The notes: generated from the sequence alone by a model not told the origin. 64,000 bases of DNA from Opitutales bacterium (GCA_046540835.1 JBKHEL010000002.1:1723-65722), one strand, 5' to 3'. Counted from the stretch's first letter, positions 30,508-36,783 are shown. Numbers and translations: made by a program.

Positions 30508-32466
30508 TCAGAAGTCGCTTCGCGAAACGCGAATATCCTCACCATTGACGATCACCCCGAGTTGACCGACGCGCAGGGTGCGATCGGTCACTCCGCTGCC
30601 TCTTAGGCTGATGATCTCCGGATGGGGCGCTCCTTCCGGAACCACGGTCATCACGACCAGGTGGTCGCCATCCTCTGAGAAGGAATTGATCCATTTCGCA
30701 TTACGGTAGCGCTCACCATTAAAAAAGAAGTCAGAGCCGCGATCCAAATCACCCTCGTCAAAACGAAAGTCGCGCGGATAGATAACCGTGGCGCGCAGGC
30801 TGCCGTTCGGGGCGGTAACGGTGAAGGTGTTGCCACTTGTGGAGATGTCGTTGAGCCCGTTGACTGCGACATATTGCCAAAAGTGACCATTCTCACTGGT
30901 ATCGGCGACGACGAATACCGCTTCGGCGCCTGATGCCGCACTGAAGTCGGTGAGCAGGCGCCTTGTGTGGTTTTTGACATTCAGATTGGTGGTTTCCATG
31001 TGTCCAACAAGAGCGCCTGAACCATTCTTGTTGAGGAGCGGCGTATCGGCCGTGGAGACAATCTCGCCTTGAAGCCGGTTGTCGACCTCACTGGGGCTCG
31101 TGTTGCCCGGATTTTCAACATACAGCGTGTTCTGAAGTCGATAGTATGGATTTCCCTTACTGTAGCGTCCCCCGCCGATTGCCAGAGGACCTCCCATGCC
31201 GTTGATACGAAAGCTCAAGCCGTCGGGGCCATCATGACCTCCGGGAGTGCGCCGCCGCAAATTGATCCCCAGGATCACGTCGTTTTCGTCCTGGTAGCGG
31301 TTGCGGAAGATGTTCCAGCCATTGCCGCGATGATCCTGAAAAAGAGCCTTCCACTGTGGAATCGTCATCGGATTCGCCAGATCCTCGTTTCCGGGATGAT
31401 AAAGGATAGAGTAAATGACTCCGGCTCGTTCATTGTCCCAGGTCTGATCACCATTCATCCCGCGCATACGATCATACATCCAGACCTGCCCGGGAATCAG
31501 CGATTCGGGTAAGAAGGCAAAGCCAAGACCGTAAGTCCCCTCACCGGCTGAGTGGTTATTATCATCGGTGAAGTCAAAATGCGATCCAATGATCCCGTCC
31601 GGAGCTGTTTCGATGGCGATGCTGCGATAGAGTGCGGTATGACCGGTTGCTGTCCACCAGGTGTTCGCCATGGCGGCATTTCCCATAAAGCGGTCTCCGC
31701 CTTCAACCAATCGCTCATAGGCCAGGGCAGCTGGCCCCACGGCCGCCATGGGGAAAGTCATGTAGCCGAGGCCTTCGTAGTTCCAGCCCGGACTCGGATG
31801 AGTGCCCAGGTTCGCATCGAGGTAGTCGCGCATTCGATCAATCGAGGCGGTGAGGTATTCGGCATCGTAGGGATCGTCTGTTGCCAGGTAACCGAGCACC
31901 GCAGAGGCGCCACGCAGGCCTTGCCAGTTGCTGGAGGCATTGGTGTTTTGCCGCGTGCCGCCCTCCAGGTGGATTACATCACTTTGTTGTTTCAGGGCGG
32001 CGGAGACAGTGGCATTGAACGAGGCGTCCCAGGCGTCGGAAGCGTAACAAAAGTCGTAGGCTTGGGCGACGTGCCTGTTCCACGTATACATGCGCAGGCC
32101 AAAGGTGAGCCGGTGTCCCCAGCGGTCCGGGTTATCCAGTACCGCCTGAGTGTAATCTCTGGCCTTTTCGGCCCAGCTTTCGTCGCCCGTCAGAATGTAT
32201 AAGAACCCGCAACTGCTGGCCCGCCAGGCGTCGTTGTAAGGTTTGAAGGGCATGACGTCTTTTTCAGCGTCAGCCAATAAGCGCGCATACATTGATTTCC
32301 ATGGTTCCTTACGGATCTTTTCCCGTAATTCAGGGATATCCGACTCGCTGAAAAGCAAACGCGGGTGCTCTGCCGCAGATAAAAGCGATAAAAGTGATTG
32401 GACGAGAATGCACAGAAGTGAGAGGGCAATCAGGGAGCGGCGGTTGGGCTTCAACGAGAAGGACAT
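30508..32466 (-). CDS. Exported heparinase II/III-like (alpha/alpha toroid + beta-sandwich) protein, putative polysaccharide lyase
   Basis: Signal peptide then HPRLLFS..DI.ELREKI; SNWQG; W.YEG.GY; GGHDGPDGLSF. Alternative start 32496. Confidence 0.6.
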   Translation of the reverse strand: MSFSLKPNRRSLIALSLLCILVQSLLSLLSAAEHPRLLFSESDIPELREKIRKEPWKSMYARLLADAEKDVMPFKPYNDAWRASSCGFLYILTGDESWAEKARDYTQAVLDNPDRWGHRLTFGLRMYTWNRHVAQAYDFCYASDAWDASFNATVSAALKQQSDVIHLEGGTRQNTNASSNWQGLRGASAVLGYLATDDPYDAEYLTASIDRMRDYLDANLGTHPSPGWNYEGLGYMTFPMAAVGPAALAYERLVEGGDRFMGNAAMANTWWTATGHTALYRSIAIETAPDGIIGSHFDFTDDNNHSAGEGTYGLGFAFLPESLIPGQVWMYDRMRGMNGDQTWDNERAGVIYSILYHPGNEDLANPMTIPQWKALFQDHRGNGWNIFRNRYQDENDVILGINLRRRTPGGHDGPDGLSFRINGMGGPLAIGGGRYSKGNPYYRLQNTLYVENPGNTSPSEVDNRLQGEIVSTADTPLLNKNGSGALVGHMETTNLNVKNHTRRLLTDFSAASGAEAVFVVADTSENGHFWQYVAVNGLNDISTSGNTFTVTAPNGSLRATVIYPRDFRFDEGDLDRGSDFFFNGERYRNAKWINSFSEDGDHLVVMTVVPEGAPHPEIISLRGSGVTDRTLRVGQLGVIVNGEDIRVSRSDF

Positions 32467-32520
32467 GAGTAGGGATAGATTGATCGGGTAACGCATAGAT
32501 CGGTGCGCGTTTCTCAAGAG

Positions 32521-33717
32521 TTATTTGCTGCCGGGGCCAGATCGTGTCAAGCTCGTGAGGATGCTTTCACGGTAAGCACCGGCGAGTGTGCTCCATCTCG
32601 GCAGTGTTTTGCGATCAGTTTTTTGCGGGGGAGCACCGCTCAATAATTGTCTCAGAGCGTCCTTCAAGTTGTCAATGTCAGTCGCCTGATCCTCTGTTGA
32701 GCCTTCATAGAAATAGGCTCCGGGGAGGCATTCCGGGTAAGCGAGGCGACGGGGGACGACAACTGTGGCACCAGCCTGAGCCAGCTCAAGAATGGCGAGT
32801 CCCTGGAAATCGTGCAGGGCGGAGGAGACGCCGATCCCGGCCTCGCGCATAAAGGCGGTGTAAGTTGCTTCGTCTGCTTCGCCCCAATGACGCACGCAGC
32901 GACCGAGCGCCTCGCGGTATTCCCGGAACTCCTCGGGATTGCGCCCTCCGCCGGAGCCGAGCATAGCCACTTCGAAGTCGATCCCTTCGGAGGCAAGTGC
33001 GGTGAGCCCTTTGAGAAAACGCTCCGGCTGTTTGTCCCATTCCCAGCGGTGGTTCCAGACGATGAGGCGGGGGTTTTTGGGTGCGCTGCACAAAGTTTCG
33101 AAGCGCTCTGTCAACGGAACCGGGAGCACTTCAGAGCGAACCTCCAAACGCTGGATTGGCTGATTGGGCAGGCGTTCGGGAAACTTTTTCAGGAGCTGAC
33201 GGGCACCGGCAAAGAAGCTGTCCCGGTTGAAGGCAGTGTTGAAATAAATGCGGTCTGCGCAAAGGGCGTTCTGGATACTCTGGAATTGCCAGCCCTTTTG
33301 GTGGCTGGCCCATTGGTGAGCGCCAATCGGGTGGGCAAACTGGTTTTCATGGAAGTAAAGCCAGAGCGGCGTGCCGTGGAGAGCCGGGCAGAGGGCTTTG
33401 AGGGTGACCACCTCACTCAGGCTGGTCGCGATCACCAGATCGTATTCCTCCGAAAGGTCGGGGTCCTCGGCCAGCGCCCAGAGCCAGCCAGAGGCGCGCA
33501 CCCGCCAGCTGAAGTGACGGGAGGGTTGCGTCTTCAGTGTCCAGTCAAACTCCGGGAGCGCGGCCATCAGGCCCTCGCACCAGTAGCGGTGACTGGCGGA
33601 GTGGTAGGCGCTGAGTAATAAAATTTTCGGGGATGCACTCGGTCGCTGGCACCTCCGTGTTCGCCCGGAACGTGAGGAGCTCAGTCCTGATTTGTTTTGA
33701 GCGGGCTCGGGCTTCAT
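32521..33717 (-). CDS. DUF3524/GTDC1-family GT-B glycosyltransferase
   Basis: KILLLSAYHSASHRYW, RHFSWR, YFHENQF, VWNHRWEWDKQPE.F, HDFQGLAILE, VVPRRLAYPE. Start uncertain (33717 or 33747). Confidence 0.85.
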   Translation of the reverse strand: MKPEPAQNKSGLSSSRSGRTRRCQRPSASPKILLLSAYHSASHRYWCEGLMAALPEFDWTLKTQPSRHFSWRVRASGWLWALAEDPDLSEEYDLVIATSLSEVVTLKALCPALHGTPLWLYFHENQFAHPIGAHQWASHQKGWQFQSIQNALCADRIYFNTAFNRDSFFAGARQLLKKFPERLPNQPIQRLEVRSEVLPVPLTERFETLCSAPKNPRLIVWNHRWEWDKQPERFLKGLTALASEGIDFEVAMLGSGGGRNPEEFREYREALGRCVRHWGEADEATYTAFMREAGIGVSSALHDFQGLAILELAQAGATVVVPRRLAYPECLPGAYFYEGSTEDQATDIDNLKDALRQLLSGAPPQKTDRKTLPRWSTLAGAYRESILTSLTRSGPGSK

Positions 33718-33787
33718 GGTATCCCCAGTTGAAGCCGAAGCGGACAAGGGGCAAGTTTATCCTTACCGCAGATTGCGACGAAGGTGC

Positions 33788-34807
33788 TTAGCCAAACAGC
33801 TGTCGCCGCAAGGCATTGACTACCGCCAGATCCCCCCAAGGCGCTCCGCGTGCCCGGTGCACTTTCACTGGAAACTGCCGCCCACAGCCCGACTGCCAGG
33901 CCCCGGTGTAGCCCCGCACGAACTCCGCCGTGCCCAGGACCGCCCCGTCCGTAAAATAGCGCACCCGGCAGCGCAGCACCGCCGCCAGTGGGAGTTCGCC
34001 TTTTTCCTCGTTGAGCACCCGCTCGGCGGTAGCCCGATCGATCACCTTGCCCCGGCAGGTCCAGGGTGACGAGCCCTTGCCAAAGATCAGACTCCGGTGA
34101 TCCGCCAGCGCTGCCTGCAGGCAGGCCGCATCACCCTCACGCGGCGAGCCATCCGCATAGCTCGACCAAATCCGCGCCAGCCCCCACTGTGCCAGCCGAT
34201 TTCCCGCCACCGCCTCTGCATAGCCGCACCAGCGGTAGTCCTTCGGGTCCTCGACCAGGCCCGCCCGCACCGGATTCAGGTCGATGTAAGCCGCCATCGT
34301 GTGCAGCGGATTGCCCGCGCCCTGCACCAGCACGCTCTTGAAACGCTCCATCCACAGCGTCCCCAGCCGCTTGTTGTGGTTGCGATTATACCAGATCGAG
34401 AAACGCTGTTTCAGCGTCTTCATAAACGCCGACAAGTCATGCATCCGCCGGAGCAAGCGGGCCCGCATCGCCAGCGCCTCCTCCGCGCCCGCCTGCAAGC
34501 CCGCTTCAAAGCGCTTGAACGAAGCCGTCTGATACTTCGTCGGTTTCGGGTAGAGCACGCGGAAGCGGCGCAACAGCTCCGCATCTGAGATGGCCCGATC
34601 CCGCTCCGGCACCCGGACCAGCACATGAAAGTGGTTATCCATGATGCAATAGGTCAGCACCTCCACACCCGAAAAGTCCGCCACCCGCCAGAGCATCTTT
34701 CGGAAAACCTCCTTCTCACGAGCACCCAAAAGCCGCTCACTTCCCACAACCCGACTCATCGCGTGATGAATACTTACTGAATCTGATGTTCGTAATCGTT
34801 TTCTCAT
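33788..34807 (-). mobile_element. REP-associated tyrosine transposase (RAYT, Y1 HUH family), long form
   Basis: HAMSRVVG, YCIMDNHFHVL (HUH), FMKTLKQRFSIWYN, GTLWMERFKSVLV, AAYIDLNPVRAGLV..PKDYRWCGY. Confidence 0.88.
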
Positions 34808-34931
34808 TTTAGGCGAGAAAACAAAAAGATCATTCCACGTCAATACGAAAAAATATTAGCAGGTTATAGATTTTTATATGGATCCAGGTCGCGGAGAAAG
34901 CTCAGAACAACCCCGCCTTCGTCAATCACCG

Positions 34932-34974
34932 TTCTAAATGAATAAGCCTCCCCCGGGGCTTATTCATTTGAGAA
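34932..34974. repeat. Long inverted repeat (candidate REP or bidirectional terminator) overlapping the prfC stop
   Basis: aaatgaataagcc-tcccccgg-ggcttattcattt (13-bp perfect arms, 34936-34969), extendable by ttct/agaa across a 1-nt bulge. Confidence 0.8.
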
Positions 34975-36564
34975 TTCGGGCGGGGTGGTGTGCAGTTTGA
35001 TGTCGCTGTGCTCGCGGTGGAAGTAGTCGAGGTTCCAGGTTGACTCGAAGAGGATGCAGGGGCGGTCGAGGTCGTCTTTGACGCGGGTGGCACCGGAGAG
35101 GTAGCCGCTGAGTGCGGGATGCTGAAGTGAGGCGGGGTCGATCCAGCGGGTGATGGTCCAGGGGGCTTTTTCCATGCGCGATGTCGCGCCGTATTCGGCT
35201 TCCAGGCGGTAGCGGACGACGTCGAACTGGAGTTGACCGACGGCACCGATCAAGGGGATGCGCTGGTCGGCGTGGAGCGGGTAGAAGCGCTGGATGACCT
35301 TTTCCTGGAGCAGTTGCTGGAGGCCTTTATTGAAGCGCTTGTAGGTTTTTGTATCGGTGTGGTGGAGATAGACAAAACACTCGGGGGCGAAGCGGGGGAT
35401 GGCGTTGTAGGTGATATCGTCTGTCTCGGTCAGGGTATCGCCGATTTCGAGATCGGCTTGTCCGGTGACGCCGAGGATGTCGCCGGGCCAGGCCTCGTCG
35501 CCTGTTTCTCGCTCGCGTCCGAAGACCTGGTGGGTGTGTGAGAGGCGAAGCGTTCTGCCGGTGCGGGCGAGGCGGACGCGCAGGTCGCGGTGGAAGCGCC
35601 CGGAGCAGATGCGCAGGAAGGCCAGGCGGTCGCGGTGGTTGGGGTCCATGTTGGCCTGGATCTTGAAGACGAAGGCGGAAAAGTCCGCGCGCCCGGGCTC
35701 GACGAGTTGGTCGCCCGCTTTTCGGGATTGTGGGGCGGCTGAATGTTGGAGCAGGCCGTCGAGCAGTAACTGGACGCCGAAGTTGTTGATTGCGCTGCCG
35801 AAAAACACGGGCGTCAGGGTCCCGTCCGCGACAGCTTCGTGGTCAAGGCAGCTGCCGGCAGCTTCGAGGAGTTCGTCGGTCTCAGCGAGTTGCTCGAGGA
35901 TACTTGAGGGGACGGCTTCGCGGACAGCGGGGTCGTCGAGCCCCCCGATCGAGACGGGAGCGCGGTAGCGCCCGCCGGTGACACGTTCGAAGCGGTGGAG
36001 CGCCCCGCGTTCGCGATCGAGGATACCGACAAAATCCGCACCATCGCCGATCGGCAGGTTGGCGGCGAAGGTCCGCAGTCCCAGGCGGGACTCGATTTCG
36101 TCGAGCAGTTCGAGGGGCTCTTTGCCCGGGCGGTCACATTTGTTGATAAAGGTGATGATAGGGATGCCCCGGTTCCGGCAGACCTCAAAGAGTTTGAGGG
36201 TCTGGTCTTCGATGCCCTTGGCTGCGTCGAGGACCATGATCGCGGAATCGACCGCCATGAGCACCCGGTAGGTGTCTTCGGAGAAGTCGCGGTGACCTGG
36301 CGTATCGAGAATATTGATGCAGTAGCCTTCGTAATCAAAGCGCATGACGGCTGAGGAGACCGAGATGCCGCGCTTTTTCTCCAGTTCGAGCCAGTCGGAA
36401 GAGGTATCCTGCGCGTTTTTACGGCTTCGCACGCCTCCGGCCTGTTCTTTGGCGCCGCCGTAGAGGAGTAACTTTTCGGTAAGTGTGGTCTTGCCCGCGT
36501 CCGGATGGGAGATGATGGCGAGGGTGCGCCGCCGGGCGCACTCCTGTTGTATTTGTTTTGTCAT
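34960..36564 (-). CDS. prfC: Peptide chain release factor 3
   Basis: RRTLAIISHPDAGKTTLTEKLLLYGGA, SDWLELEKKRGISV, DTPGHRDFSEDTYR, FKIQANMDPNHRDR, GAVGQLQFDV. Confidence 0.95.
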   Translation of the reverse strand: MTKQIQQECARRRTLAIISHPDAGKTTLTEKLLLYGGAKEQAGGVRSRKNAQDTSSDWLELEKKRGISVSSAVMRFDYEGYCINILDTPGHRDFSEDTYRVLMAVDSAIMVLDAAKGIEDQTLKLFEVCRNRGIPIITFINKCDRPGKEPLELLDEIESRLGLRTFAANLPIGDGADFVGILDRERGALHRFERVTGGRYRAPVSIGGLDDPAVREAVPSSILEQLAETDELLEAAGSCLDHEAVADGTLTPVFFGSAINNFGVQLLLDGLLQHSAAPQSRKAGDQLVEPGRADFSAFVFKIQANMDPNHRDRLAFLRICSGRFHRDLRVRLARTGRTLRLSHTHQVFGRERETGDEAWPGDILGVTGQADLEIGDTLTETDDITYNAIPRFAPECFVYLHHTDTKTYKRFNKGLQQLLQEKVIQRFYPLHADQRIPLIGAVGQLQFDVVRYRLEAEYGATSRMEKAPWTITRWIDPASLQHPALSGYLSGATRVKDDLDRPCILFESTWNLDYFHREHSDIKLHTTPPEFSNE

Positions 36565-36783
36565 TAGCGGCAGACTCGAAGTCATGCGCGGGATCAGCAA
36601 GCACTTTTAAGTCGCGATGGCAGCGTGCGGGGGGTGCAGAGAGATTCATTTGCCGCGGCCAGTTGGCTGATCGTCGAGTTCTTCGAATCTAATTCCTCGG
36701 TGAGGTGCTTCGGTTCACGACGTTTTGTTAAGGATTGGTTTAAACAAAAGCTTAGCAAAGTTGAGTTCCGGGAGTCTTGACGC

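What the first reader, a model, noticed from the sequence alone, without database searches (positions are those of the whole stretch)
32521..33747. Bacterial homolog of the tRNA queuosine mannosyltransferase family (DUF3524/GTDC1)
Seen: family hallmarks HENQ, HRWExDK.P..F, HDFQG and RLAYPE. Established: human GTDC1 (QTMAN) adds mannose to queuosine in tRNA-Asp; glycosylated queuosine is not known from bacteria and the bacterial members' substrate is, to my knowledge, unassigned. Either bacteria have an unrecognised tRNA glycosylation or the family has another acceptor. Context points both ways: a glycan-lyase-like gene follows closely, while the translation gene prfC lies upstream beyond the transposase.
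Basis: partly seen in the sequence, partly recalled or inferred. Interest (0 to 1): 0.65.

Follow-up and report, generated by a model that had tools for sequence, protein, structure and literature searches.

The report
Bacterial relative of queuosine mannosyltransferase
This marine Verrucomicrobium carries an intact, full-length relative of the animal enzyme that puts mannose on the tRNA base queuosine, so it may sugar-coat its own tRNA, but that rests on homology only and databases already name the family.

Summary
A minus-strand gene (32521-33717, 398 aa) encodes a two-domain GT-B glycosyltransferase. It has a complete QTMAN_N (ex-DUF3524) domain (E 2e-44) and a GT1/GT4 C-half, and all four quoted motifs are present.

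It aligns end to end with human-identical QTMAN (26% identity, E 7e-37). Human K296, required for manQ formation, corresponds to K229 here. The acceptor-side N-domain motifs (SH, WR, YFHENQ, FN) are 96-100% conserved across 154 representatives, vertebrates included. The N-domain is about as conserved as the donor domain, which argues for a shared acceptor.

The genome has tgt, queA, queG and a ManC-like gene, so queuosine-tRNA and probably GDP-mannose are available.

Gene context adds nothing. The heparinase-like neighbour is not conserved. Adjacency to prfC exists only in the closest relative. No partner gene recurs across 95 loci. Co-occurrence with queuosine genes holds but has no power, because queA is in 97.5% of the phylum. 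GluQRS co-occurs with the gene in Gammaproteobacteria rather than replacing it.

Verdict: a genuine bacterial QTMAN-family member. It is probably (about 50%) a queuosine-tRNA hexosyltransferase, but this is untested. NCBI and UniRef already name the family this way, and this scan has flagged it 41 times.

The parts
32521..33717 (-). QTMAN-family (GTDC1/DUF3524) glycosyltransferase gene, 398 aa plus stop, ATG start at 33717
   Evidence: It is single copy in the genome. GC is 59.6% against 58.6% for the genome.
33628..33717 (-). 30-residue basic N-terminal extension (MKPEPAQNKSGLSSSRSGRTRRCQRPSASP, pI 11.8), absent from homologues and modelled as disordered
   Evidence: (pLDDT about 50). Homologues start at M-x-I-L-L-L. 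In the window that position reads K-I with no start codon.
33112..33627 (-). QTMAN_N domain (the acceptor-side Rossmann half of the GT-B fold). It holds S42-H43, R67/W71-R72/R74, Y121-F-H-E-N-Q126, F159-N160 and N164.
   Evidence: PF12038, E 2e-44; these residues are 92-100% conserved in 154 representatives.
33340..33351 (-). HENQ motif (residues 123-126)
   Evidence: H 99%, E 97%, N 99%, Q 99%
32641..33048 (-). GT1/GT4-type nucleotide-sugar (donor) domain
   Evidence: PF13692 27.2 bits, PF00534; the C-half matches GT4 chains in the PDB. Foldseek hits to GlgM, MshA and PimA.
33031..33051 (-). HRWEWDK motif. R224 and K229 are 100% conserved. K229 (33031-33033) aligns with human QTMAN K296.
   Evidence: K296A abolishes manQ formation in human cells (bioRxiv 10.64898/2026.06.28.735034).
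32785..32814 (-). HDFQG...E (D303-x7-E311), the counterpart of the GT4 E-x7-E motif
   Evidence: position 303 is E in 57% and D in 41%; E311 92%
32731..32748 (-). RLAYPE motif (residues 324-329)
   Evidence: Y327 98%, E329 88%
33788..34843 (-). RAYT / IS200-like Y1 transposase between prfC and the glycosyltransferase gene. It is not part of the function.
   Evidence: In L002 a VapBC pair occupies this position instead.
34960..36600 (-). prfC (release factor 3). It is a neighbour only.
   Evidence: Adjacency is seen only in the window and L002.
30508..32517 (-). Downstream secreted 669-aa protein, weakly heparinase-like. The probable true start is the ATG at 32466. It is a neighbour only.
   Evidence: It is absent from all related loci.

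Best explanation
The gene encodes a soluble, cytoplasmic, retaining GT-B (GT4-like) glycosyltransferase of the QTMAN/GTDC1 family. Most likely it transfers a hexose from a nucleotide sugar onto a hydroxyl of the cyclopentenediol ring of queuosine-34 in the cell's own tRNA. The best guess for the donor is GDP-alpha-D-mannose. The target is tRNA-Asp(GUC) or another GUN-anticodon tRNA, and the product is an alpha-hexosyl-queuosine like animal manQ. Shown here: the domain architecture, the fold, conservation of the catalytic and acceptor-side residues with the characterised vertebrate enzyme, and the presence in the same genome of the enzymes that make Q34-tRNA and probably GDP-mannose. Inferred: the C-domain binds the NDP-sugar (R224 and K229 on the diphosphate, D303/E311 on the sugar or ribose). 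Also inferred: the QTMAN_N domain (S42-H43, the R67/R72/R74 cluster, H123-E-N-Q126, F159-N160) holds the flipped-out Q base and the anticodon loop. The identity of the acceptor, the donor and the tRNA species is inference from homology. The gene works alone, with no conserved partner, as most tRNA-modification enzymes do.
For: PF12038 matches full length at E 2e-44, together with a GT1 C-half. The protein aligns end to end with the human-identical QTMAN P0121 (E 7e-37, 26% identity); the only large difference is a linker insertion of about 110 aa in vertebrates. Human K296 is needed for manQ formation (bioRxiv 10.64898/2026.06.28.735034); it corresponds to K229, which is 100% conserved. Identity to vertebrates is 27-29% in the N-domain and 30-33% in the C-domain. 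16 of the 34 columns invariant across 49 bacterial and vertebrate sequences lie in the N-domain. Across 154 representatives at 50% or less mutual identity, S42, H43, W71, R72, Y121, H123, E124, N125, Q126, P130, F159 and N160 are 96-100% conserved. In GT-B enzymes the N-domain carries acceptor specificity (established knowledge), so this pattern argues for a common acceptor. The AF2 model has pLDDT 91 and pTM 0.87 and shows a GT-B fold; its nearest solved structures are retaining GT4 enzymes, including the GDP-mannose-using PimA. That fits an alpha-linkage. The own genome has tgt, queA, queG, all four GUN tRNAs and a ManC-like guanylyltransferase. The gene is never found in LPS, EPS or glycolipid clusters in 95 loci. 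It is absent from plasmids and essentially absent from phages.
Against: There is no biochemical evidence for any bacterial member, and glycosyl-queuosine has not been reported from bacteria. No paper was found; that it is unreported also rests on my own knowledge. Identity to the characterised enzyme is only 26-30%, a range where GT-B acceptor specificity can change. The gene is patchy and horizontally moved: it is in 16 of 401 genomes of the phylum and, within its own family, only in its own genus. The Opitutales clade nests inside a Saccharospirillum (gammaproteobacterial) clade. This behaviour is unlike a core tRNA-modification enzyme. There is no neighbourhood or fusion link to queuosine genes. 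In Gammaproteobacteria 47 of 49 carriers also have GluQRS, which already decorates the same diol on tRNA-Asp Q34. Co-occurrence with tgt and queA is uninformative because both are nearly universal.
Confidence: 0.5

Rival explanations
1. The enzyme has the same fold and chemistry but a small-molecule acceptor. It would glycosylate a soluble cyclitol, polyol, organic acid or sugar phosphate (for example to make a compatible solute or a thiol or cofactor precursor). In that case only the eukaryotic branch was recruited to queuosine-tRNA.
For: The closest solved folds include several GT4 enzymes with small acceptors: MshA, BshA, GlgM, sucrose-phosphate synthase, SenB and VldE. Carriers are overwhelmingly marine or halophilic (Halomonadaceae, Marinobacter, Saccharospirillum, marine Opitutales). 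The distribution is patchy and HGT-prone, as for accessory metabolism. The gene coexists with GluQRS. Earlier scan notes report some subfamilies in operons with a HAD-IIA hydrolase (not tested here).
Against: The acceptor-side N-domain motifs are 96-100% conserved between bacteria and the tRNA-acting vertebrate enzymes. No phosphatase or other pathway partner recurs in the 95 loci examined. The marine bias may reflect sampling.
Confidence: 0.28
2. The enzyme is an envelope glycan or glycolipid glycosyltransferase (LPS core, EPS, glycolipid), functionally linked to the adjacent heparinase-like gene.
For: The GT4 C-domain resembles WaaG, PimA and PglA. A secreted, weakly heparinase-like protein is encoded directly downstream on the same strand.
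Against: The downstream gene is not next to the glycosyltransferase in any of 16 verrucomicrobial relatives, including the 74%-identical one. Neighbours in 95 loci are housekeeping or miscellaneous genes (nth, rnf, trpS, ArsA-like ATPase, kinases); other glycosyltransferases, flippases and sugar-nucleotide genes never appear. There is no signal peptide or membrane segment.
Confidence: 0.07
3. The enzyme acts on a nucleic acid or protein substrate other than Q34. Examples are another diol-bearing modified base, or queuosine/queuine as a free nucleoside or base (a salvage or storage form).
For: A conserved basic cluster (R67/K, R72, R74) is shared with vertebrates. Nothing in the data fixes the substrate to intact tRNA.
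Against: No fusion or neighbourhood points to DNA-modification or salvage genes. The gene is absent from phages, where 7-deazaguanine DNA systems are common.
Confidence: 0.1

Closest known systems
Vertebrate QTMAN (GTDC1), tRNA-queuosine alpha-mannosyltransferase (Zhao et al. 2023, Cell, cited from memory and via bioRxiv 10.64898/2026.06.28.735034)
   Same: Both have a full-length QTMAN_N + GT1 architecture. They share the motifs S-H, W-R, YFHENQ, F-N, HRWE-DK-P, H[DE]F-G...E and YPE. The catalytic Lys is conserved (human K296 = K229 here). The predicted retaining GT-B fold fits an alpha-linkage.
   Different: Identity is only 26-30%. Bacteria lack the interdomain insertion of about 110 residues. 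Bacterial sequences have HDFQG and R-AYPE where vertebrates have HEFFG and LVYPE. The activity, donor and tRNA target are untested in any bacterium. The bacterium makes Q de novo on tRNA (tgt/queA/queG) rather than salvaging queuine.
Retaining GT4 GT-B glycosyltransferases (PimA 2gej, MshA 3c48/3c4q, GlgM 6tvp, BshA, sucrose-phosphate synthase)
   Same: The overall fold matches (Foldseek E 2e-13 to 1e-10, TM about 0.6). The C-domain donor-binding motifs match: an R/K pair and E-x7-E.
   Different: Sequence identity is 10-16%. Their N-domains are unrelated to QTMAN_N at sequence level; PDB sequence and profile searches hit only the C-half. Their acceptors are lipids or small molecules.
GluQRS (YadB), glutamyl-queuosine tRNA-Asp synthetase of bacteria
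   Same: It is the only known bacterial enzyme that decorates the cyclopentenediol of Q34 (on tRNA-Asp). It is likewise a stand-alone, patchily distributed gene.
   Different: It has an unrelated fold (class I aaRS catalytic domain) and unrelated chemistry. It is absent from this genome and from L002's genome, but present in 47 of 49 gammaproteobacterial carriers, so the two are not alternatives.
QTGAL (B3GNTL1), tRNA-queuosine beta-galactosyltransferase
   Same: It glycosylates Q34 (on tRNA-Tyr) in animals.
   Different: It is an inverting enzyme of a different family (stated in bioRxiv 10.64898/2026.06.28.735034). It was not looked for here.

Membership tests
QTMAN / GTDC1 family (Pfam QTMAN_N PF12038 + GT1) | Complete QTMAN_N (ex-DUF3524) N-terminal domain above the gathering threshold | tested here: met
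   151.8 bits against a cut-off of 25, profile positions 1-168 of 168. 154.5 bits in the genome search.
QTMAN / GTDC1 family (Pfam QTMAN_N PF12038 + GT1) | C-terminal GT1/GT4 nucleotide-sugar domain, giving a GT-B two-Rossmann fold | tested here: met
   PF13692 scores 27.2 bits (cut-off 27) and PF00534 21.2 bits. AF2 pLDDT is 91.1, with Foldseek matches to GT4 enzymes.
QTMAN / GTDC1 family (Pfam QTMAN_N PF12038 + GT1) | Catalytic lysine equivalent to human K296 (K296A abolishes manQ) | tested here: met
   K229 aligns with K296 in BLASTP and MAFFT. It is 100% conserved in 154 representatives. The requirement comes from the paper read.
QTMAN / GTDC1 family (Pfam QTMAN_N PF12038 + GT1) | Family motifs YFHENQ, HRWE-DK-P, H[DE]F-G...E and YPE shared with the characterised vertebrate enzymes | tested here: met
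QTMAN / GTDC1 family (Pfam QTMAN_N PF12038 + GT1) | End-to-end collinear homology with animal QTMAN | tested here: met
   BLASTP E 7e-37 covering residues 32-392 against 3-455, with one linker insertion in the human protein.
tRNA-queuosine alpha-mannosyltransferase activity (EC 2.4.1.110) | Transfers mannose from GDP-mannose to Q34 of tRNA-Asp | not testable with these tools
   This needs LC-MS of tRNA nucleosides or an in vitro assay.
tRNA-queuosine alpha-mannosyltransferase activity (EC 2.4.1.110) | The substrate is available: Q34-tRNA is made in the same cell | tested here: met
   tgt 486 bits, queA E 2e-106, queG 376 bits. tRNA-Asp(GTC), Tyr, His and Asn genes are present.
tRNA-queuosine alpha-mannosyltransferase activity (EC 2.4.1.110) | The donor is available: GDP-mannose synthesis | tested here: inconclusive
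   A ManC-like guanylyltransferase domain scores 304 bits. That is below the cut-off of the bifunctional GMP_PMI model, and the match covers positions 3-353 only. Sugar specificity is not determinable.
tRNA-queuosine alpha-mannosyltransferase activity (EC 2.4.1.110) | Phyletic dependence on the queuosine pathway | tested here: inconclusive
   tgt is in 48 of 51 carriers and queA in 15 of 16, with every miss in a MAG. But queA is in 391 of 401 genomes of the phylum, so the test has no power.
Envelope glycan/LPS GT4 enzymes (WaaG/PimA/PglA-like) | Located in a polysaccharide, LPS or glycolipid gene cluster, or membrane-associated | tested here: not met
   No such neighbours appear in 95 loci. 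The N-domain is unrelated at sequence level.

The most novel reading that the evidence does not exclude
Glycosylated queuosine is not an animal speciality. Bacteria carrying this family (1,392 clusters at 50% identity, in Gammaproteobacteria, Verrucomicrobiota and other phyla) would hexosylate Q34 of their own tRNA, and animal QTMAN would descend from this bacterial family. Because the gene is accessory and horizontally mobile, the sugar might serve as a shield for the anticodon loop against Q34-directed anticodon nucleases. Colicin E5-type toxins cut next to Q34, and glycosylation was reported to protect human tRNA from angiogenin cleavage. On this reading it would not be a general decoding aid.
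Probability: 0.4. Interest if true: 0.75.

Novelty: new member of a known kind. Interest (0 to 1): 0.42.

Why it matters
ManQ and galQ have been known in animal tRNA for about 50 years, and their enzymes were found only in 2023. Both are regarded as animal-specific. If the bacterial homologues act on tRNA, a new bacterial tRNA modification would exist. The origin of the animal enzyme would be explained. Simple, genetically tractable systems (Halomonas, Marinobacter, or expression in E. coli) would become available to study what sugar on queuosine does. If they do not act on tRNA, the family becomes a clean case of an acceptor switch despite a nearly invariant acceptor pocket. This particular locus adds no special context: it is one ordinary, intact member of a family that databases already name.

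Tried and rejected
(1) Gene-neighbourhood inference. I called ORFs in 80 loci (mostly gammaproteobacterial; two are from Puniceicoccaceae MAGs) and in 15 verrucomicrobial loci, then clustered them. The most frequent neighbour cluster appears in only 17 of 80 loci, and that is lineage synteny (Halomonadaceae nth/rnf). Nothing is family-wide.

It holds only in the window and L002.

(3) Co-occurrence with tgt, queA and queG. The test is passed but has no power.

(4) Mutual exclusion with GluQRS as a sign of a shared substrate. Rejected: 47 of 51 carriers have both.

(5) Domain fusions as a Rosetta stone. Longer family members only have linker insertions and no extra domains.

(6) Phage or plasmid carriage. 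There is none apart from one distant phage glycosyltransferase.

(7) A solved QTMAN structure. There is none by sequence, profile or fold.

(8) Recent HGT signal in composition. There is none: GC is 59.6% against 58.6% for the genome.

(10) Electrostatics of the model. Whole-protein pI varies from 5.5 to 9.2 across the family and is uninformative.

(11) Literature. There are no papers on DUF3524 or on bacterial QTMAN or manQ.

Full report
**1. Observation**

The finding's coordinates hold one long ORF on the minus strand, 32521..33747. The only plausible start upstream of the conserved N-terminus is the ATG at 33717, which gives 398 aa. A database gene call starting at Met52 (P0001, 348 aa) would remove the conserved first strand and the S-H motif, so it is probably wrong.

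Pfam gives a complete QTMAN_N domain (PF12038, formerly DUF3524) at E 2e-44, 151.8 bits, covering profile positions 1-168 of 168. Weaker GT1 matches cover the C-half. NCBIfam has no model for the family.

The flanks are as described:
- prfC lies at 34960-36600.
- An IS200/RAYT-type transposase lies at 33788-34843.
- A co-directional 669-aa secreted protein follows. Its 'glycan-lyase' likeness is weak: HepB model 23.6 bits against a cut-off of 600, and no Pfam family.

**2. Organism and distribution**

Names attached to the nearest homologues place the genome in Verrucomicrobiota, Opitutales/Puniceicoccaceae. One genome that the genome search places in the same genus, with a contig of 284,793 bp, matches the Coraliomargarita sinensis record. 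The assembly is 2.65 Mb, 98.9% complete, and carries one copy of the gene.

The family is large. A profile search of 1.84 billion representatives finds 1,392 clusters at E <= 1e-30. More than 583 species genomes match, mostly marine or halophilic Gammaproteobacteria.

Within Verrucomicrobiota the gene is patchy. It is in 16 of 401 sampled genomes (13 of 184 genera), and within the window's own family only in its own genus.

In a maximum-likelihood tree the Opitutales proteins form a clade nested among Saccharospirillum (gammaproteobacterial) sequences, with 100/100 support for the joint clade. Other Verrucomicrobiota carry a different subfamily, only 28-36% identical. The gene has therefore moved horizontally. 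The transfer is not recent, because its GC content (59.6%) matches the genome (58.6%).

**3. Relation to the characterised enzyme**

I used a remembered human GTDC1 sequence only as bait. It retrieved real database entries: P0121 (listed at 100% identity to the bait), macaque entries at 96% that NCBI and UniRef name tRNA-queuosine alpha-mannosyltransferase, and alligator, opossum and turtle entries.

The window protein aligns with P0121 end to end (E 7e-37, 26% identity). The one large difference is an interdomain insertion of about 110 residues in vertebrates.

A 2026 preprint reports that the K296A mutant of human QTMAN cannot restore manQ34 on tRNA-Asp (bioRxiv 10.64898/2026.06.28.735034). 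K296 is the lysine of HRWEHDK and aligns with K229 of HRWEWDK in the window protein. That lysine and R224 are 100% conserved in 154 representatives.

**4. The most informative result: acceptor-side conservation**

In GT-B enzymes the C-terminal half binds the nucleotide sugar and the N-terminal half binds the acceptor. Families that change acceptor usually keep the former and lose similarity in the latter (established knowledge).

Here identity to vertebrate QTMAN is 27-29% in the N-domain and 30-33% in the C-domain. Of the 34 columns invariant across 49 bacterial and vertebrate sequences, 16 lie in the N-domain.

Conservation of N-domain residues across 150 representatives at 50% or less mutual identity, plus four vertebrates:

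| Residue | Conserved |
|---|---|
| S42 | 98% |
| H43 | 96% |
| W71 | 96% |
| R72 | 96% |
| Y121 | 97% |
| H123 | 99% |
| E124 | 97% |
| N125 | 99% |
| Q126 | 99% |
| P130 | 99% |
| F159 | 97% |
| N160 | 100% |

A basic cluster (R67/K, R72, R74) is also shared with vertebrates. This near-invariant acceptor pocket is the best argument that bacterial and animal members recognise the same chemical group. It is an argument, not a demonstration.

**5. Fold**

An AlphaFold2 model built from the 49-sequence alignment is confident (pLDDT 91.1, pTM 0.87). It shows two Rossmann-like halves, and the 30-residue basic N-terminal extension is disordered.

Foldseek against the PDB returns retaining GT4 enzymes at E 2e-13 to 1e-10 and 10-16% identity: GlgM, MshA, PimA (GDP-mannose dependent), sucrose-phosphate synthase, SenB, PglA and BshA. 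There is no solved QTMAN structure. A retaining mechanism fits the alpha-linkage of manQ.

**6. Substrate supply**

The genome encodes:
- tgt (486 bits), queA (E 2e-106) and queG (376 bits);
- tRNA genes with GTC, GTA, GTG and GTT anticodons;
- a ManC-like mannose-1-phosphate guanylyltransferase domain (304 bits).

Q34-tRNA is therefore expected in this cell, and GDP-mannose is plausible.

**7. Tests that could have discriminated but did not**

Carriers have tgt in 48 of 51 genomes and queA in 15 of 16, and every miss is in a MAG.

I asked whether the gene replaces GluQRS, the bacterial enzyme that glutamylates the same diol on tRNA-Asp Q34. It does not. 47 of 51 carriers, nearly all of them Gammaproteobacteria, have a GluQRS above the curated cut-off. 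The window's genome and its closest relative lack one. Coexistence neither supports nor excludes a tRNA role, but it slightly weakens a strict 'tRNA-Asp, same hydroxyl' model for Gammaproteobacteria.

**8. Context**

I called and clustered ORFs in 80 loci from genome contigs and in 15 verrucomicrobial loci. No partner is conserved. The commonest neighbour cluster occurs in 17 of 80 loci and reflects Halomonadaceae synteny (nth, rnf genes).

Other local patterns:
- an overlapping ArsA-like ATPase in five Halomonadaceae loci;
- trpS 56-85 nt downstream on the same strand in six Cellvibrionales/Spongiibacter loci (a seventh, L050, has it two ORFs further downstream);
- histidine kinases in one verrucomicrobial family.

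None of the loci is a polysaccharide, LPS or lipid cluster.

The heparinase-like downstream gene of the window is found next to the glycosyltransferase in no relative. prfC is adjacent only in L002, which is 74% identical. There a VapBC toxin-antitoxin pair, rather than a RAYT, sits between the two genes. prfC is not adjacent in four other Opitutales loci. So the window's context carries no functional information in either direction.

No family member is fused to another domain. The gene is not on plasmids and is essentially absent from phages.

**9. Interpretation**

Membership in the QTMAN/GTDC1 family is secure: every defining sequence and structural feature I could test is met. Function is inferred.

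| Hypothesis | Odds |
|---|---|
| Physiological acceptor is queuosine-34 in tRNA (tRNA species and sugar open; GDP-mannose and tRNA-Asp as default guesses) | about 50% |
| Small-molecule acceptor | about 28% |
| Another nucleic-acid or free-queuosine substrate | about 10% |
| Envelope glycan or lipid role | about 7% |

The first hypothesis rests on the conserved acceptor pocket, the conserved catalytic lysine, substrate availability and the stand-alone gene organisation. The small-molecule rival is supported by the accessory, HGT-prone, largely marine or halophile distribution and by small-acceptor GT4 relatives.

**10. Novelty and prior notes**

NCBI and UniRef already name these bacterial proteins 'tRNA-queuosine alpha-mannosyltransferase (domain-containing)'. 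This scan has flagged the family 41 times, and earlier follow-ups reached the same conclusion.

I found no paper on the bacterial members. The biological question, whether bacteria make glycosyl-queuosine, is open, interesting and easily testable in cultured carriers. This locus is an ordinary member with uninformative context.

- the K296/K229 equivalence;
- quantified conservation of the N-domain pocket;
- the GluQRS co-occurrence result;
- the answer to the prfC question;
- the Saccharospirillum-Opitutales transfer.

One tool (look-up of sequencing runs) was closed, so transcript evidence could not be sought.

Noticed in passing
window 33718-34959; L002 7149-8006: The prfC-to-QTMAN intergenic space holds different inserted elements in two close relatives. 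The window has a RAYT/IS200-like transposase. L002 (74% identical QTMAN, 85% identical prfC) has a VapC/AbrB-type toxin-antitoxin pair on the opposite strand. A RAYT 70% identical to the window's lies elsewhere in L002 (13702-14451).
   Followed up: partly
window 33628-33717: The gene has a 30-residue, very basic (pI 11.8), disordered N-terminal extension that no homologue has. Homologues start M-x-I-L-L-L, but the window reads K-I with no start codon at that position. The original start seems to have been lost and an upstream ATG adopted, possibly in connection with the RAYT insertion about 70 nt upstream.
   Followed up: partly
tree of alignment A3: The Opitutales QTMAN-like proteins are nested within a clade of Saccharospirillum (Gammaproteobacteria) proteins (100/100 support) and are about 60% identical to them. 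They are only about 40% identical to other Gammaproteobacteria and about 30% to other Verrucomicrobiota. This points to an old inter-phylum transfer.
   Followed up: partly
window 30508-32517 (-): A 669-aa protein with a signal peptide (probable start at the ATG at 32466) has no Pfam family and only a 23.6-bit match to the HepB heparin lyase model. It is possibly an undescribed polysaccharide lyase. It is not conserved next to the glycosyltransferase in any relative.
   Followed up: partly
L012, L036, L060, L063, L076, L077 (also L050): In Cellvibrionales/Spongiibacter-type Gammaproteobacteria a tryptophanyl-tRNA synthetase-like gene follows the QTMAN-like gene on the same strand, after 33-75 nt in six loci and two ORFs further downstream in L050. 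An M18 aminopeptidase often precedes it. This is a lineage-restricted translation-related neighbour.
   Followed up: no
L009, L011, L014, L015, L022: In five Halomonadaceae loci the QTMAN-like gene overlaps the stop of an upstream ArsA/GET3-like ATPase gene (by 1 nt in four loci), which is itself preceded by a small unknown ORF. In four of these loci (not L009) a CstA-like transporter gene lies further upstream. This may be a local operon of unknown meaning.
   Followed up: no
own genome G000 and G001: The window's genome and its closest relative lack GluQRS: only GltX/GlnS-like matches below the cut-off were found. By contrast 47 of 49 gammaproteobacterial carriers of the QTMAN-like gene have it.
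   Followed up: partly
G001:C84:3385-4479 and G425:C2:28532-29635: The ManC-like guanylyltransferase match in two related genomes is read through one in-frame TGA, whereas the window's genome copy has none. This could be an assembly error, a frame boundary or a pseudogene.
   Followed up: no
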